Sequence record: PZ154895.1
Source of the DNA: a phage
DNA: 64,000 bases
Strand: one strand, 5' to 3'
Positions 3,224 through 53,012 of the stretch are shown here, in pieces. The notes beneath the pieces were generated by a model, which saw only the letters and a program-made list of their open reading frames with translations, did not search any database and was not told where the DNA came from. The position numbers were made by a program, and so were the translations under genes. Numbering within the stretch: the first letter of the stretch is position 1; every line of letters starts with the position of its first letter.

Positions 3224-3904
3224 ATGATAGATAAAGATTATATTGCAGAGCTGAAGGCTCTTGATGATAATAAAGAAGCTAAGGCTAAATTAGCTGAATA
3301 TGCTGAACAGTTTGGTATAAAGGTCAAAAAGAATAAATCTTTTGATAATATCGTTAATGATATTGAAGAAGCCCTCCAGAAGCTCGCTAGTGAACCTATG
3401 CCAGAGACTGATGGGTTATCTATTAAAGACTTAATCAATGCTGCTGATGCTGCAGAGGGATTAAAATATGACGATGAAGAAGTCAATCCAGAGGCAGCAC
3501 TTCTGATTGATTCTCCGGTTAAATCTGATATTAAAATTGAAGTAGTCGAAACGGATAAAATTCCTGAAAATACCGATGTTTTGATTGAAGATACTCCTTT
3601 TGTTGAAGAAAAATTCGAACAGGCTGTAGCTGAGATTATTGAATCTGAAAAGCCGTCTGTATTTACTCTTCCGGAAAACTTTAGTCCGAATCTTCAGTTG
3701 ATTGGAAAAAATCCAGGATTCTGCACTGTTCCTTGGTGGATTTACCAGTGGATTGCTGAAACTCCGGATTGGAAATCTCACCCAACTAGTTTTGAACACG
3801 CGTCGGCACACCAAACTTTATTTAGCTTAATTTACTACATTAATCGTGACGGATCAGTTCTAATTCGTGAAACACGCAATTCTTCTTTCGTAACATTAAA
3901 ATAA
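3224..3904 (+). CDS. inh: Inh, inhibitor of prohead protease gp21
   Basis: 226 aa, size and position next to hoc as in T4. Confidence 0.7.
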   Translation: MIDKDYIAELKALDDNKEAKAKLAEYAEQFGIKVKKNKSFDNIVNDIEEALQKLASEPMPETDGLSIKDLINAADAAEGLKYDDEEVNPEAALLIDSPVKSDIKIEVVETDKIPENTDVLIEDTPFVEEKFEQAVAEIIESEKPSVFTLPENFSPNLQLIGKNPGFCTVPWWIYQWIAETPDWKSHPTSFEHASAHQTLFSLIYYINRDGSVLIRETRNSSFVTLK

Positions 3905-3913
3905 GGATAACTT

Positions 3914-5044
3914 ATGGCTTTTACAGTTGATATAACTCCTAAAACACCTACTGGAGTTATAGATCAGACTCAGCAGTTTACTGCTACACCCAGTGGTCAA
4001 ACTGGAGATGGACCTATTACATATGCTTGGACTGTAGACGATGTTCCACAGGATGGAGCTGAAGCAACTTTTAGTTATGTACTAAAAGGACCTGCCGGTC
4101 AAAAGACTATTAAAGTAGTTGCAACAAACACAGTTCCAGATACTGATGCTGAAACAGCAGAAGCTACTACAACTATCACAGTTCAAAATAAGACACAGAC
4201 AACTACCTTAGCTGTAACTCCTGATAGTCCTGCTGCTGGAGTGATTGGAACTCCTGTTGAATTTACTGCTGCTTTAGCTTCTCAACCATCAGGCGCATCT
4301 GCTACGTATCAATGGTATGTTGATGACTCTCAGGCTAGTGGGGAAACTAACTCTACATTTAGCTATACTCCAACTACAAGTGGAGTAAAAAGAATTAAAT
4401 GCGTAGCTCAAGTAACAGCGACAGATTACGATACAAAAGAAGTTACTTCTAATGAAGTATCACTGACTGTTAATAAGAAGACAATGAATCCACAGGTTAC
4501 ATTGACTCCTCCTTCTATTAACGTTCAGCAATATGCTTCGGCTACATTTACTGCTAATGTCACTGATGCCCCGGAAGAAGCGCAAATTACATATTCATGG
4601 AAGAAAGATTCTTCTCCTGTAGAAGGGTCAACTAATGTATACACCGTTGATACATCATCTATTGGAAGTCAAACTATTGAAGTTACTGCAACTGTTACCG
4701 CTACTGATTATGATAGCAAAACTATCACAGCAGAAGGTCAAGTTCAGGTAACTGATAAAGTTGCTCCAGAACCAGAAGGTGAATTACCTTATGTTCATCC
4801 TCTTCCACATCGCACTTCAGCTTATATCTGGTGTGGTTGGTGGGTTATGGATGAAATCCAAAAAATGACCGAAGAAGGTAAAGATTGGAAAACTGAAGAA
4901 CCAGATAGTAAATACTACTTACATCGTTACACTCTTCAGAAGATGATGAAAGACTATCCAGAAGTTGATGTTCAAGAATCGCGTAATGGATACATCATTC
5001 ATAAAACTGCTTTAGAAACTGGTATCATCTATACCTATCCATAA
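3914..5044 (+). CDS. hoc: Hoc, highly immunogenic outer capsid protein (Ig-like repeats)
   Basis: 376 aa; repeated Ig-like segments (TYAWTVDD, YQWYVDD, YSWKKD); size identical to T4 Hoc. Confidence 0.85.
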   Translation: MAFTVDITPKTPTGVIDQTQQFTATPSGQTGDGPITYAWTVDDVPQDGAEATFSYVLKGPAGQKTIKVVATNTVPDTDAETAEATTTITVQNKTQTTTLAVTPDSPAAGVIGTPVEFTAALASQPSGASATYQWYVDDSQASGETNSTFSYTPTTSGVKRIKCVAQVTATDYDTKEVTSNEVSLTVNKKTMNPQVTLTPPSINVQQYASATFTANVTDAPEEAQITYSWKKDSSPVEGSTNVYTVDTSSIGSQTIEVTATVTATDYDSKTITAEGQVQVTDKVAPEPEGELPYVHPLPHRTSAYIWCGWWVMDEIQKMTEEGKDWKTEEPDSKYYLHRYTLQKMMKDYPEVDVQESRNGYIIHKTALETGIIYTYP

Positions 5045-40054: not shown

Positions 40055-40751
<697 letters not shown>

Positions 40752-42125: not shown

Positions 42126-42198
42126 TGGGAATTAGCCAAGTTGGTAAGGCACTGGATTTTGATTCCAGGATGCAAAGGTTCGAGTCCTTTATTCCCAG
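42126..42198 (+). tRNA. tRNA-Gln (anticodon UUG)
   Basis: manual cloverleaf: 7-bp acceptor tgggaat/attccca, anticodon loop ttTTGat, T-arm GGTTCGAGTCC. Confidence 0.75.
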
Positions 42199-42199
42199 C

Positions 42200-42286
42200 G
42201 CGAGAATGGTCAAATTGGTAAAGGCACAGCACTTAAAATGCTGCGGAATGATTTCCTTGTGGGTTCGAGTCCCACTTCTCGCACCA
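42200..42286 (+). tRNA. tRNA-Leu (anticodon UAA), type II
   Basis: acceptor gcgagaa/ttctcgc + CCA, anticodon loop ctTAAaa, long variable arm. Confidence 0.75.
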
Positions 42287-42291
42287 AATTT

Positions 42292-42365
<74 letters not shown>

Positions 42366-42411
42366 ATTTATGACTCGTCGTGAGACGCTCAGTTCTTTAT
42401 TAGGGACTGAT

Positions 42412-43020
42412 ATGCATTTTTATCTTTATAAAATAACAAATAAAATTAATAATAAAATTTATATTGGTGTGCATTCTACCGAAAATTTAGATGATGGATA
42501 TATGGGTTCTGGTAAATTATTAAAAAGAGCCCAAGACAAGTATGGTATAGAAAATTTTTCTAAAGAAATATTAGAGTATTTTGATGATAAAGAATCTATG
42601 CTTGAAGCCGAGAAAAATATTGTTACAGAAGAGTTTTTAAATAGACCAGATGTGTATAATTTAAAACTTGGCGGTGAAGGTGGATGGGACCACATAAATA
42701 ATTATCCTATGACAGATCAGCAACGCGAATTAATTTCATTGGGTGTTAAAAAGGCACATTCTAACGGAAAATTAAAAGGATGGTCTTCAAATGGATTAAT
42801 GAAGAATGGCTTTGCTGGTAAAACTCATTCTCAAGAAGCTAAACGTAAAATAGCAAAAGCAAACGAAGCAAAAGTTTCTGCGGATGAAAGAAAAAGAAGA
42901 ATAGAAATTTCTAAATTATATGATTTTTCTAAGCGTGGTGAATTATCTAAATATGCTAAGCATATTGGCGTAAGTCATACTCAAGCAAAAAGAATTCTAA
43001 ATCAAATTAACAATATATAA
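42412..43020 (+). CDS. segB: GIY-YIG homing endonuclease SegB (alternative start 42370)
   Basis: GIY-YIG motif HFYLYKITNKINNKIYIGVH; embedded in the tRNA cluster as in T4. Confidence 0.75.
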   Translation: MHFYLYKITNKINNKIYIGVHSTENLDDGYMGSGKLLKRAQDKYGIENFSKEILEYFDDKESMLEAEKNIVTEEFLNRPDVYNLKLGGEGGWDHINNYPMTDQQRELISLGVKKAHSNGKLKGWSSNGLMKNGFAGKTHSQEAKRKIAKANEAKVSADERKRRIEISKLYDFSKRGELSKYAKHIGVSHTQAKRILNQINNI

Positions 43021-43026
43021 ATATTT

Positions 43027-43116
43027 GGAGGCGTGGCAGAGTGGTTTAATGCACCGGTCTTGAAAACCGGCAGTCGCTCCGGCGACTCATAGGTTCAAAT
43101 CCTATCGCCTCCGCCA
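43027..43116 (+). tRNA. tRNA-Ser (anticodon UGA), type II
   Basis: acceptor ggaggcg/cgcctcc + CCA, anticodon loop ctTGAaa, long variable arm. Confidence 0.7.
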
Positions 43117-43121
43117 GTTTT

Positions 43122-43197
43122 GCTGATTTAGCTCAGTAGGTAGAGCAACTCACTTGTAATGAGAAGGTCGGCGGTTCGATCCCGTCAATCAGCACCA
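43122..43197 (+). tRNA. tRNA-Thr (anticodon UGU)
   Basis: acceptor gctgatt/aatcagc + CCA, anticodon loop ctTGTaa, T-arm GGTTCGATCC. Confidence 0.7.
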
Positions 43198-43198
43198 A

Positions 43199-43273
43199 GG
43201 CCCTGTAGCTGGAAGGTTCAAGCAAGCGACTCATAATCGCCAGATGGTGGTTCAATTCCACCCAGGGCCACCA
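43199..43273 (+). tRNA. tRNA with CAU anticodon (Ile-lysidine type or Met)
   Basis: acceptor ggccctg/cagggcc + CCA, anticodon loop ctCATaa; T4 carries an Ile tRNA of this type. Confidence 0.6.
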
Positions 43274-43282
43274 AATTAATTT

Positions 43283-43369
43283 GGGGAGTTATCCCGTAGA
43301 GGTAGCGGTGTGGACTGTAAATTCATTGTCATTGCGACTCGGGTGGTTCGACTCCATCACTCCCCACCA
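43283..43369 (+). tRNA. tRNA-Tyr (anticodon GUA), type II
   Basis: acceptor ggggagt/actcccc + CCA, anticodon loop ctGTAaa, long variable arm; manual fold, less certain. Confidence 0.5.
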
Positions 43370-43373
43370 ATTT

Positions 43374-43448
43374 GGATGTGTAGCTCAATGGCAGAGCGAT
43401 CGCCTGTTAAGCGATTGGTTATAGGTTCGAATCCTATCACGTCCGCCA
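43374..43448 (+). tRNA. tRNA-Asn (anticodon GUU)
   Basis: acceptor ggatgtg/cacgtcc + CCA, perfect anticodon stem atcgc/gcgat with loop ctGTTaa. Confidence 0.6.
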
Positions 43449-43452
43449 AATC

Positions 43453-43528
43453 CGAGGCATAGCTCAGAAGGAAGAGCAAGGACCTTCTAAGTCCTAGGTC
43501 GTAGGTTCGATCCCTACTGCCTCGACCA
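43453..43528 (+). tRNA. tRNA-Arg (anticodon UCU)
   Basis: acceptor cgaggca/tgcctcg + CCA, anticodon stem aggac/gtcct with loop ctTCTaa, T-arm GGTTCGATCC. Confidence 0.7.
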
Positions 43529-50345: not shown

Positions 50346-50498
50346 GCAAATAAGAAATATGGGAACAAGCTGGACCTCATGATTCTATGAGGGATTCCCG
50401 CCAACCTGTAATAAGGTCGAGCCCAAGTGCGGTAATGGGTAAATACAGAAATGGACAATTCATGCGCCATGGAATGGCCCAAATTTAGAGAGAATAAA

Positions 50499-51038
50499 AT
50501 GAGAACATTTTTAACTGGTCCTTATCTATCCCTGATGAATGCTTTTACACACCATTCTGATGCTAGAGTAGAAGAAATTTGTAAAAACGATTATATCCCA
50601 CCATTTGAAGACTTACTTAAGCAGTATTGCACACTTCGTTTAGATGGTGGCAGACAATCCGGTAAATCAACTGCTGTGACTAACTTTGCTGCTAATTGGC
50701 TGTATGATGGTGGAACAGTTATTGTTCTTTCTAATACTTCAGCTTACGCTAAAATTTCTGCGGGCCACATTAAAAAAGAATTTTCTCGTTATTCTGGCGA
50801 TGATATTCGATTCCGCTTATTTACCGATTCTGTCCGTAGTTTTATTGGCAATAAAGGAAGCAAGTTCAGAGGTTTATCGCTTTCTCGAATTTTGTATATA
50901 ATCGATGAGCCTGTTAAATCTCCTGATATGGATAAAATTTACGATATTCATATTGAAACTGTGCAACACTGCTGCAATAGTAAATGCTGTACTGGTGGTA
51001 TTACTCGTCCACAGTTTTTCGTAATCGGAATGCAATGA
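50499..51038 (+). CDS. small P-loop NTPase with C-terminal Cys cluster
   Basis: Walker A DGGRQSGKST, Walker B ILYIIDEP, C-terminal CCNSKCC; start chosen at MRTFL (alternative 50451). Confidence 0.55.
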   Translation: MRTFLTGPYLSLMNAFTHHSDARVEEICKNDYIPPFEDLLKQYCTLRLDGGRQSGKSTAVTNFAANWLYDGGTVIVLSNTSAYAKISAGHIKKEFSRYSGDDIRFRLFTDSVRSFIGNKGSKFRGLSLSRILYIIDEPVKSPDMDKIYDIHIETVQHCCNSKCCTGGITRPQFFVIGMQ

Positions 51039-51370: not shown

Positions 51371-51733
51371 ATGAAAGCATATCAAATTCTTGAAGGCACA
51401 CATAAAGGTACTATTTATTTTGAAGACGGTATTCAAGCACGAATTATTGTCTCTAAAACTTTTAAAGAGGACTCTTTTGTAGACCCGGAAATTTTCTACG
51501 GTTTGCATGCCCGTGAAATTGAAATTGAAACACAACCTACAGTTAAAATTGAAGGTGGTCAACACTTGAACGTTAACGTTCTGCGTCGCGAAACTCTGGA
51601 AGATGCAGTTAAGCATCCGGAAAAATATCCGCAGCTGACCATCCGTGTATCAGGTTATGCAGTTCGCTTTAACTCTCTGACTCCGGAACAGCAGCGCGAC
51701 GTTATTGCTCGTACCTTTACTGAGAGTTTGTAA
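51371..51733 (+). CDS. GrcA/YfiD-like autonomous glycyl radical cofactor
   Basis: 120 aa; C-terminal half [55 protein letters not shown] carries the glycyl-radical RVSGY motif, near-identical to enterobacterial GrcA as recalled. Confidence 0.85.
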
Positions 51734-51954
51734 TGGCAAAGATAATTATTGAAGGTTCTAAAGATGTGCTAAATGCTTTCGCCGAATGGTTTAGTAATTC
51801 AGGCGAGCAGCAATTTAATGAAGCGTGGACCATGGGTGATATTGATGGAATTTATCCTACGACAGAAATTTCTGTTCAAGGATATGGCATTCATGAACCT
51901 ATTCGTTTAGTTGAATATGATTTATGTACTGGTGAGGAAGTAAAATATGATTGA
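51733..51954 (+). CDS. hypothetical small protein
   Basis: 73-aa ORF, ATGG overlap with upstream stop. Confidence 0.4.
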   Translation: MAKIIIEGSKDVLNAFAEWFSNSGEQQFNEAWTMGDIDGIYPTTEISVQGYGIHEPIRLVEYDLCTGEEVKYD

Positions 51955-52213
51955 AGATATTAAGGGTTATAAGCCACATACTGAAGAGAAAATCGGTAAA
52001 GTGAATGCTATCAAAGACGCTGAAGTTCGTTTAGGACTTATCTTTGATGCTTTATATGATGAATTCTGGGAAGCACTGGATAATTGTGAAGACTGTGAAT
52101 TCGCAAAGAATTATGCTGAAAGCCTCGATCAGTTAACTATTGCTAAAACTAAACTCAAAGAAGTCAGTATGTGGGCTTGTCGCGCAGTGTTTCAACCAGA
52201 GGAAAAATATTAA
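51947..52213 (+). CDS. hypothetical small acidic helical protein
   Basis: 88-aa ORF; vs.3-vs.8 region of T4. Confidence 0.4.
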
Positions 52214-52491
52214 TGGCTCAATTAAGCGCAGGGTTTGGTTATGAGTATTATACTGCCCCTCGTCGTGTATCTGTTGCTCCTAAGAAAATTCAAAGTCTTG
52301 ATGACTTCCAGGAAGTAGTCCGTAAAGCTTTCCAGGACTATGCACGTTATCTTAAAGAAGATTCACAGGACTGTCTCGAAGAAGATGAAATTGCTTACTA
52401 TGAGCAGCGTCTTGAACAGCTCAAAAACCTACATGAGGTTCGTGCAGAAGTTTCAAAGTCTATGAATAAATTGATTAGATTTAAAGAATAA
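52213..52491 (+). CDS. hypothetical small protein
   Basis: 92 aa from MAQLSAGF with GAGGAA SD. Confidence 0.4.
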
Positions 52492-52525
52492 CTGTTTACT
52501 TTTCCTCTTGACTGTGGTATAATTT
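52488..52525 (+). promoter_or_regulatory. T4-type early promoter upstream of regB
   Basis: -35 GTTTAC 52494-52499, -10 TGGTATAAT. Confidence 0.7.
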
Positions 52526-52550: not shown

Positions 52551-53012
52551 ATGACTATCAACACAGAAGTTTTTATCCGTCGAAATAAGCTCCGTCGTCA
52601 CTTTGAGTCGGAGTTTCGTCAAATTAACAATGAGATTCGTGAGGCATCAAAAGCAGCAGGGGTCTCATCGTTTCATCTAAAATATTCTCAGCATCTTCTT
52701 GATCGTGCAATTCAACGGGAGATTGATGAGACATATGTTTTTGAATTATTCCATAAAATAAAAGACCATGTTTTAGAAGTTAATGAATTCCTGAGTATGC
52801 CTCCGCGTCCTGACATTGACGAGGATTTTATTGATGGGGTTGAATATCGTCCTGGGCGTTTAGAAATCACAGATGGAAATCTTTGGCTTGGATTTACAGT
52901 TTGTAAACCTAATGCGAAGTTCAAAGACCCGTCGCTTCAATGCAGGATGGCAATTATTAACAGTCGTCGTTTACCAGGAAAGGCTTCTAAAGCAGTAATT
53001 AAAACTCAATGA
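52551..53012 (+). CDS. regB: RegB site-specific endoribonuclease
   Basis: 153 aa, exactly the T4 RegB size, own early promoter, position between denV and tk. Confidence 0.65.
   Translation: MTINTEVFIRRNKLRRHFESEFRQINNEIREASKAAGVSSFHLKYSQHLLDRAIQREIDETYVFELFHKIKDHVLEVNEFLSMPPRPDIDEDFIDGVEYRPGRLEITDGNLWLGFTVCKPNAKFKDPSLQCRMAIINSRRLPGKASKAVIKTQ

What the first reader, a model, noticed from the sequence alone, without database searches (positions are those of the whole stretch)
51733..52491. Three small ORFs upstream of regB; one may be an Acb2-type cyclic-oligonucleotide sponge
ORFs of 73, 88 and 92 aa occupy the T4 vs.3-vs.5 position. In T4, vs.4 encodes Acb2, a roughly 90-aa helical sponge for CBASS signals, and 57B (here 40296-40751) encodes the Acb1 phosphodiesterase. 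The 88-aa acidic, predicted-helical ORF at 51947 is the best size match. I cannot confirm identity from memory of the Acb2 sequence.
Basis: inference. Interest (0 to 1): 0.45.

Follow-up and report, generated by a model that had tools for sequence, protein, structure and literature searches.

The report
Known T4 immune-signal sponge genes
The three small genes upstream of regB are the phage T4 genes vs.5, vs.4 and vs.3; the middle one is the already characterised anti-CBASS sponge Acb2 (Vs.4), the last one is the recently characterised anti-Thoeris sponge TadIV-1 (Vs.3), so the finding is correct but already known.

Summary
Three tightly packed + strand ORFs sit at 51733-51954 (73 aa), 51947-52213 (88 aa) and 52213-52491 (92 aa), in a Tequatrovirus (T4-like) genome about 98% identical to T4 over this stretch.

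- **The 88-aa ORF is Vs.4/Acb2.** It matches the crystallised T4 protein (PDB 7UQ2) at 87 of 88 residues. It scores 69 bits on Pfam Acb2_Tad1_hairpin (cut-off 27). All published cGAMP-contact residues are kept: Y8, H11, T12, K23, S74, R79, F82.
- **Its one difference is A73V.** A73 is a published hexamer-interface residue. The V73 allele is absent from 50,697 phage records, and the exact sequence is absent from a 15-billion-protein collection. Full activity of this allele is therefore inferred, not shown.
It is 90/92 identical to T4 Vs.3, published in 2026 as TadIV-1, which sequesters N7-cADPR, the type IV Thoeris signal. R17, R18 and K24 are kept.
- **The 73-aa ORF (vs.5) has no known function.** Its predicted fold is confident but has no informative neighbour. 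The T4 reference copy is frameshifted.

Verdict: already known, low interest.

The parts
51371..51733 (+). vs.6, a GrcA-like autonomous glycyl radical cofactor. It is the upstream neighbour, and its stop overlaps the vs.5 start (TAATG). Context only.
   Evidence: Pfam Gly_radical E=2.2e-18. NCBIfam GrcA model TIGR04365 at 154.6 bits, below its 170-bit cut-off. 98% identical to T4 vs.6.
51733..51954 (+). vs.5, 73 aa, acidic (pI 4.1), function unknown. This is the intact form of a gene that is frameshifted in the T4 reference record.
   Evidence: PHROG 1986 E=2.8e-43, matching the full profile length. The exact protein is seen on 46 contigs. T4 has a 1-nt deletion after codon 17, giving an annotated 58-aa product. 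AF2 model pLDDT 90 with no PDB neighbour.
51947..52213 (+). vs.4 = acb2, 88 aa, a cyclic-dinucleotide sponge (anti-CBASS protein 2). The allele carries A73V.
   Evidence: 87/88 identical to PDB 7UQ2 Vs.4. Pfam PF24729 at 69.3 bits against a cut-off of 27. Ligand-contact residues are kept. The only difference from T4 is A73V.
52213..52491 (+). vs.3 = tadIV-1, 92 aa, an N7-cADPR sponge (anti-type IV Thoeris), long form with the N-terminal loop.
   Evidence: 90/92 identical to T4 Vs.3; the differences are K38 (T4 N) and E64 (T4 T). E=4.9e-38 to PDB 9WIW, the phage UPEC07 homologue. Function is taken from PMC13243611. The exact protein is seen on 304 contigs.
52495..52523 (+). Sigma-70-type promoter-like site (TTTACT, 17 nt, TG-TATAAT) in the 59-bp gap before regB. 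It marks the 3' end of the vs.5-vs.3 block.
   Evidence: Consensus scan, 10 of 12 matches with an extended -10. The gap is identical to T4. Promoter activity was not tested here.
   Evidence: Pfam REGB_T4 E=1.4e-68. 99% identical to T4 RegB.
40296..40751 (+). 57B = acb1, a cyclic-oligonucleotide phosphodiesterase. It is the second anti-CBASS gene of the same genome, 11 kb upstream.
   Evidence: Pfam PF23474 Acb1 E=2.6e-60, profile positions 1-144 of 144.

Best explanation
The segment is the vs.5-vs.4-vs.3 block of a T4-like (Tequatrovirus) phage. It sits inside a run of tightly packed + strand genes that ends at the regB promoter, and the overlapping starts and stops suggest translational coupling.

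vs.4 encodes Acb2. By identity with the crystallised T4 protein, it should form an interlocked hexamer. Three pockets, each formed between two protomers, hold 3',3'-cGAMP and other cyclic dinucleotides, using Y8/F82 stacking and H11/K23/R79 contacts. This keeps the CBASS signal away from its effector.

vs.3 encodes TadIV-1, a two-helix dimer. Its flexible N-terminal loop (R17, R18, K24) sequesters N7-cADPR, the signal of type IV Thoeris.

The two adjacent genes therefore form a pair of unrelated signal sponges against two host signalling immune systems. Acb1, 11 kb upstream, adds an enzyme that degrades cyclic oligonucleotides. vs.5 is a conserved small acidic protein of unknown role.

What is shown here: sequence identity, family membership, residue conservation and synteny. 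What is taken from the literature and inferred for this allele: binding, oligomerisation and immune evasion.
For: vs.4:
- 87/88 identity to PDB 7UQ2 and Pfam Acb2_Tad1_hairpin E=3.2e-19.
- Y8, H11, T12, K23, S74, R79 and F82 are present, and each is held by at least 95% of 120 cluster representatives.
- 11 synonymous and 1 non-synonymous codon difference from T4.
- Published mechanism: a hexamer binding three cGAMP with Kd about 30 nM (PMC10097602). T4 Acb2 binds cyclic dinucleotides but not cA3 (PMC10312549).

vs.3:
- 90/92 identity to T4 Vs.3 with R17, R18 and K24 kept, and E=4.9e-38 to 9WIW.
- Published function: N7-cADPR sponge with KD about 216 nM; only the long form is active; deleting vs.3 makes T4 sensitive to type IV Thoeris (PMC13243611).

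Context:
- T4 gene order is preserved.
- A near-identical record annotates the same ORF as acb2.
- Acb1 is present.
Against: The only residue that differs from T4 Vs.4, A73V, lies at one of four hexamer-interface positions (L29, A66, A73, A77). Mutations at these positions abolished oligomerisation and cGAMP binding (PMC10097602; the text read does not state which substitutions were made at A73). A neighbouring interface change that adds bulk, A77I, was a loss-of-function escape mutation.

V73 is rare:
- 2 of 120 cluster representatives carry it, and one of those looks like a C-to-T artefact.
- The exact protein is not in the 15-billion collection.
- No phage record reaches 100% identity.

No binding or oligomerisation was measured here. 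Co-transcription and translational coupling are inferred from spacing alone.
Confidence: 0.93

Rival explanations
1. The gene is acb2 by descent, but this A73V allele is attenuated or inactive as a sponge because the hexamer interface is perturbed. Such an allele could be neutral drift, a sequencing error, or selected because hosts carrying Panoptes (OptSE) sense Acb2 sponge activity and favour acb2 loss of function.
For: - A73 is listed among the hexamerisation residues whose mutation abolished oligomerisation and cGAMP binding, and A77I and S74N next to it were loss-of-function mutations (PMC10097602).
- V73 is private to this window among close relatives, and A is present in 112 of 120 representatives.
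- In the Panoptes study, 14 of 15 T4 escaper phages carried mutations exclusively in acb2 (PMC12657218).
Against: - A to V is conservative.
- A divergent natural homologue on a 170-kb phage contig (P0111) carries V at this position with the rest of the motif intact.
- The rest of the gene shows strong purifying selection (11 synonymous to 1 non-synonymous), and the reading frame is intact.
- No A73 change is mentioned in the main text of the Panoptes paper; its supplementary table of escaper mutations was not read.
Confidence: 0.1
2. All three ORFs, including vs.5, form one anti-defence cassette, and vs.5 is a third inhibitor of host immunity with an undescribed fold.
For: - vs.5 lies immediately upstream of acb2 with an overlapping stop and start. 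This adjacency is kept in distant genera (Kagamiyamavirus EcS1, Winklervirus CBH8) where vs.3 and vs.6 are absent.
- It is small and acidic (pI 4.1).
- Its model is confident (pLDDT 90), with no PDB neighbour.
- The family is found only in T4-like phages.
Against: - There is no homology to, or fold match with, any known anti-defence protein.
- The T4 reference carries a frameshifted copy, so the gene is dispensable in the laboratory.
- Klebsiella phage Miro has acb2 without vs.5.
Confidence: 0.2
3. The ORFs are chance open frames or unrelated small genes with no link to Acb2.
For: None was found. This was the null hypothesis to be tested.
Against: - Near-identity to a crystallised protein.
- Pfam and PHROG hits.
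- Hundreds of syntenic homologues.
- An excess of synonymous changes.
Confidence: 0.01

Closest known systems
Phage T4 Vs.4 (Acb2), PDB 7UQ2 (Jenson et al. 2023, PMC10097602)
   Same: 88 aa with 87 identical residues, the same genomic position between vs.5 and vs.3, and the same ligand-contact residues (Y8, H11, K23, R79, F82, S74, T12). It is expected to be a hexamer that binds three cyclic dinucleotides and does not bind cA3.
   Different: V instead of A at position 73, a hexamer-interface residue. This allele was not found in any other public sequence searched.
Pseudomonas phage PaMx33 Acb2, PDB 8H2J/8IXZ (Huiting et al. 2023; Cao et al., PMC10312549)
   Same: Same Pfam family. The alignment spans residues 4-85, and the cGAMP-binding Tyr and Lys (PaMx33 Y11/K26, Y8/K23 here) are kept.
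   Different: The sequence match is only marginal (E about 0.07; the paper gives 24% identity to T4 Acb2). PaMx33 Acb2 also binds cyclic trinucleotides in a second pocket, which T4-type Acb2 lacks.
Phage T4 Vs.3 = TadIV-1; structure of the phage UPEC07 homologue, PDB 9WIW (Chen et al. 2026, PMC13243611)
   Same: The 92-aa ORF is 90/92 identical to T4 Vs.3. It is the long form with the N-terminal loop, and R17, R18 and K24 are kept. It lies directly downstream of acb2, as in T4.
   Different: Two substitutions (K38 where T4 has N, E64 where T4 has T), both in the helical part. This exact allele is common in other phages (304 contigs). TadIV-1 is unrelated in sequence and oligomeric state to Acb2 (a dimer rather than a hexamer).
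Phage T4 Acb1 (gene 57B)
   Same: It is present in the same window at 40296-40751 (Pfam Acb1 E=2.6e-60) and belongs to the same anti-CBASS strategy.
   Different: It is an enzyme that cleaves cyclic oligonucleotides, not a sponge. It has a different fold and is not part of the vs block.

Membership tests
Acb2 / Vs.4 (anti-CBASS sponge) | Sequence membership: passes the Pfam PF24729 Acb2/Tad1 hairpin model and is homologous to a structurally solved Acb2 | tested here: met
   69.3 bits against a gathering cut-off of 27. E=6.9e-57 and 87/88 identity to 7UQ2_A.
Acb2 / Vs.4 (anti-CBASS sponge) | Cyclic-dinucleotide pocket residues (T4 numbering Y8, H11, K23, R79, F82; also T12 and S74) | tested here: met
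   All are present in the window protein, and each is held by at least 95% of the 120 homologues. Their roles come from PMC10097602.
Acb2 / Vs.4 (anti-CBASS sponge) | Hexamer-interface residues L29, A66, A73, A77 intact | tested here: inconclusive
   L29, A66 and A77 are kept, but A73 is replaced by V. V occurs at this position in one credible divergent homologue, P0111. The effect on assembly is unknown.
Acb2 / Vs.4 (anti-CBASS sponge) | Forms a hexamer that binds three cGAMP molecules with nanomolar affinity and blocks effector activation | not testable with these tools
   This needs SEC-MALS or AUC, ITC and a CapV assay on the V73 protein.
Acb2 / Vs.4 (anti-CBASS sponge) | Genomic position of T4 vs.4 (between vs.5 and vs.3, upstream of regB) | tested here: met
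   The gene order matches T4 NC_000866 and phages P8 and RB68.
TadIV-1 / Vs.3 (anti-type IV Thoeris sponge) | Homology to T4 Vs.3 and the phage UPEC07 TadIV-1 | tested here: met
   90/92 identical to T4 Vs.3. E=4.9e-38 to 9WIW_A.
TadIV-1 / Vs.3 (anti-type IV Thoeris sponge) | Long form (more than 80 aa) with the N-terminal flexible region; short forms of about 70 aa are inactive | tested here: met
   92 aa, and the N-terminal 37 residues are identical to T4. The criterion comes from PMC13243611.
TadIV-1 / Vs.3 (anti-type IV Thoeris sponge) | Residues R17, R18 and K24, needed for N7-cADPR binding in T4 TadIV-1 | tested here: met
   The sequence [25 protein letters not shown] has R17, R18 and K24.
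TadIV-1 / Vs.3 (anti-type IV Thoeris sponge) | Binds N7-cADPR and inhibits the Caspase-like effector | not testable with these tools
   This needs SPR or the PsCaspase reporter assay.
Any known anti-defence or structural family, for Vs.5 | Sequence or fold similarity to a characterised protein | tested here: not met

The most novel reading that the evidence does not exclude
vs.5 is intact here but frameshifted in the T4 reference, and it keeps its overlap with the acb2 start across several Straboviridae genera. It may encode a third, undescribed anti-defence protein with a new small alpha/beta fold, which would make vs.5-vs.4-vs.3 a three-gene counter-immunity cassette. A lesser variant of this reading is that the private A73V change weakens the Acb2 hexamer enough to escape decoy-sensing systems such as Panoptes.
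Probability: 0.2. Interest if true: 0.5.

Novelty: already known. Interest (0 to 1): 0.15.

Why it matters
It matters little beyond correct annotation. Acb2/Vs.4 (2023) and TadIV-1/Vs.3 (2026) are both published and experimentally characterised in T4 itself, and this phage carries near-identical copies.

The useful outputs are:
- Many records still label these genes 'hypothetical protein' or, wrongly, 'RegB-like endoribonuclease'. They should be annotated acb2 and tadIV-1.
- Two unrelated signal sponges sit side by side, with Acb1 in the same genome. This illustrates how T4-like phages stack counter-measures against signalling immunity.
- The A73V allele is a natural test case for tolerance at the Acb2 hexamer interface.
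- vs.5 is a conserved gene of unknown function sitting next to two sponges.

Tried and rejected
- **Chance ORFs:** rejected.
- **The 73-aa or 92-aa ORF as the Acb2 candidate:** rejected. Neither hits the Acb2 Pfam model. The 92-aa ORF is a sponge of another family.
- **A Vs.5-Acb2 fusion as evidence of a functional link:** the Vs.5 homologues of 97 to 164 aa looked at carry other C-terminal extensions or an N-terminal vs.7-like part. The eight scanned have no Acb2 domain.
- **Vs.5 as an FG-GAP repeat relative:** the hit to the 895-aa protein P0127 (E=1.3e-14, 7 stretches) rests on the short motif WF-N-G-Q-F repeated in an FG-GAP_3 protein. In the AF2 model this segment is a helix end plus a loop. 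I treat it as a motif coincidence.
- **Literature search for 'vs.5':** it returned only statistical uses of 'vs.'.
- **The SurE hit of Vs.5 (E=0.0084) and the Tex_N hit of Vs.3 (18.6 bits against a cut-off of 32):** both are below threshold and were ignored.
- **The afdb50 fold library:** it was not available.
- **Rfam:** it found only the tRNA cluster, and nothing in the vs block.

Full report
**1. Observation**

The ORF list and the sequence show three + strand ORFs at the stated coordinates:
- 51733-51954 (73 aa)
- 51947-52213 (88 aa)
- 52213-52491 (92 aa from the ATG; the ORF finder extends it to a GTG at 52171)

They are packed head to tail:
- The stop of the upstream 120-aa ORF overlaps the first ATG (TAATG).
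- The first and second ORFs overlap by 8 nt.
- The second stop overlaps the third ATG (TAATG).
- Each start has a GAGG- or GAGAG-type ribosome-binding site upstream.
- A 59-bp gap containing a promoter-like site (TTTACT, 17 nt, TG-TATAAT) separates the block from regB at 52551-53012.

**2. Identity of the region**

A 1.8-kb query around the block matches 820 phage records, almost all of them Tequatrovirus and relatives. The best is 98.1% identical. Over 24 kb the nearest records are about 95-97% identical, so the window is a distinct T4-like phage.

**3. The 88-aa ORF is Acb2/Vs.4**

- Searched against all PDB chain sequences, it matches the Vs.4 chain of 7UQ2 at E=6.9e-57 with 87 of 88 residues identical. 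It matches the Pseudomonas phage Acb2 structures (8H2J, 8IXZ) weakly but along its whole length.
- It passes Pfam PF24729 (Acb2/Tad1 hairpin) at 69.3 bits against a cut-off of 27.
- It falls in PHROG 717, the family Jenson et al. cite for Vs.4 homologues.
- A near-identical phage record annotates the gene as 'anti-CBASS protein 2'.

The published mechanism for T4 Vs.4 is as follows. It forms a hexamer that binds three 3',3'-cGAMP molecules with a Kd of about 30 nM. Y8 and F82 stack on the bases, and H11, K23 and R79 make polar contacts (PMC10097602). T4 Acb2 binds cyclic dinucleotides but not cyclic trinucleotides (PMC10312549). It also binds 2',3'-c-di-AMP, the decoy of the Panoptes system (PMC12657218).

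All these contact residues are present here, and each is held by at least 95% of the 120 cluster representatives. Against T4 the gene differs at 11 synonymous codons and 1 non-synonymous codon, which indicates purifying selection.

**4. The one difference: A73V**

The single amino-acid change is A73V (GCC to GTC). A73 is one of four residues (L29, A66, A73, A77) that Jenson et al. call the hexamerisation interface. Mutations there abolished oligomerisation and cGAMP binding. A77I and S74N, next to it, were loss-of-function mutations from their screen.

How common is V73?
- Among the 120 cluster representatives, position 73 is A in 112, S in 3 and V in 2.
- One of the two V sequences (P0012) carries A-to-V changes throughout and looks like a C-to-T artefact.
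- The other (P0111, 56% identical, on a 170-kb contig) is credible.
- No record among 50,697 phage genomes encodes an identical protein (best 98.9%).
- The exact sequence is absent from the 15-billion-protein collection, whereas the window's exact Vs.5 and Vs.3 proteins are on 46 and 304 contigs.

A to V is conservative, so I expect function to be retained. This is inference, and I carry the attenuated-allele reading as a rival at about 0.1.

**5. The 92-aa ORF is TadIV-1/Vs.3**

It is 90/92 identical to T4 Vs.3 and matches PDB 9WIW at E=4.9e-38. The paper that deposited 9WIW (PMC13243611) reports the following:
- T4 vs.3 encodes TadIV-1.
- TadIV-1 is a dimeric two-helix sponge that sequesters N7-cADPR, the type IV Thoeris signal, with a KD of about 216 nM.
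- Deleting vs.3 makes T4 sensitive to type IV Thoeris.
- Only the long homologues (about 90 aa) are active.
- R17, R18 and K24 of the T4 protein are needed for binding.

The window protein is the long form and keeps all three residues. Its two substitutions (K38, E64) lie in the helical part, and the exact allele is widespread. Several database records call this gene 'endoribonuclease RegB...', which is an annotation error carried over from its neighbour.

**6. The 73-aa ORF (vs.5)**

- It matches PHROG 1986 (unknown function) over the whole profile.
- The T4 reference has a 1-nt deletion after codon 17. The deletion shifts the frame and gives the annotated 58-aa product. Frame 3 of T4 still encodes the conserved C-terminal part.
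- A profile search found 72 homologues. All that carry a name are from T4-like phages or from bacterial assemblies that hold such phage sequence.
- A full HMMER scan of 1.84 billion representatives found only 7 hits. Two of them are large repeat proteins that match through a short WF-N-G-Q-F motif.
- The AlphaFold2 model from 58 sequences is confident (pLDDT 90.1, pTM 0.75). It has two helices (residues 10-21 and 28-33) followed by two strands (44-49 and 57-63).

The function remains unknown.

**7. Synteny**

| Phage (genus) | Arrangement |
|---|---|
| RB68 (Tequatrovirus) | Same seven-gene order as the window |
| EcS1 (Kagamiyamavirus) | vs.5-vs.4-regB; no vs.3, no vs.6 |
| Serratia phage CBH8 (Winklervirus) | vs.5-vs.4-regB; no vs.3, no vs.6 |
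| Klebsiella phage Miro (Slopekvirus) | vs.6-vs.4; no vs.5, no vs.3 |

So acb2 is the constant element, vs.5 is a frequent partner and vs.3 is an accessory gene. In RB68 the flanking proteins are 97-100% identical to the window's, but Acb2 is only 68% identical. Phage records fall into two Acb2 identity classes (90-99% and 60-80%). This points to allele replacement at acb2.

**8. Other claims**

**9. Verdict**

Everything of substance is already published for T4 itself, so novelty is 'already known' and interest is low.

Three residual points are worth recording:
- the private A73V allele at a hexamer-interface position;
- the uncharacterised but conserved vs.5.

Noticed in passing
window 51733-51954; L002 (T4 NC_000866) 3841-4058: The T4 reference lacks one base after codon 17 of vs.5, so its annotated 58-aa product is frameshifted. 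The window, phage P8, RB68 and the PHROG profile all have the intact 73-aa form. This is either a lesion in the T4 laboratory strain or an old sequencing error.
   Followed up: yes
L006 (phage RB68) 2001-2282 compared with window 51947-52213: RB68 has vs.6, vs.5, vs.3 and regB proteins 97-100% identical to the window's, but its Acb2 is only 68% identical. Phage records split into two Acb2 identity classes (90-99%: 478 records; 60-80%: 518 records). This suggests recombinational allele replacement at acb2.
   Followed up: partly
window 52213-52491 and database records: vs.3 (and in some records vs.1 and vs.4) is annotated 'endoribonuclease RegB domain-containing protein' or 'putative endoribonuclease'. 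PDB 9WIW also carries the molecule name 'Endoribonuclease'. This looks like annotation carried over from the neighbouring regB. The protein is the TadIV-1 sponge.
   Followed up: partly
window 51787-51822 (Vs.5 residues 19-30): The invariant Vs.5 motif WFSNSGEQxFxE resembles the repeat motif of FG-GAP_3 proteins. This gives a 7-stretch hit to an 895-aa secreted repeat protein (P0127, E=1.3e-14). It is probably a short-motif coincidence.
   Followed up: partly
protein P0012 (Logan assemblies), homologue of window 51947-52213: This Vs.4 variant has A-to-V and R-to-C changes throughout, a pattern of C-to-T changes. It is probably a damaged or chemically converted sequencing library rather than a natural allele.
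   Followed up: no
cluster 1: The 90%-identity cluster that contains the window's Vs.5 (73 aa) also lists many 88-aa Vs.4 proteins, and its representative is a Vs.4 sequence. Two unrelated overlapping genes have apparently been merged, perhaps through a fused gene call.
   Followed up: no
window 42126-43525: A cluster of eight tRNA genes on the + strand (Rfam RF00005, 59-74 bits), corresponding to the T4 tRNA region.
   Followed up: no
window 51371-51733: vs.6 is a GrcA-like autonomous glycyl radical cofactor (Pfam Gly_radical E=2.2e-18). It scores 154.6 bits on the GrcA equivalog, below the 170-bit cut-off. It lies directly upstream of the sponge genes, and in Klebsiella phage Miro it abuts acb2 directly.
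   Followed up: partly
window 50451-51038: The vs.8 homologue is 195 aa here and contains a P-loop-like GGRQSGKS motif. It is 219 aa in T4 and 167 aa in phage P8, so the length or start of this gene varies among close relatives.
   Followed up: no
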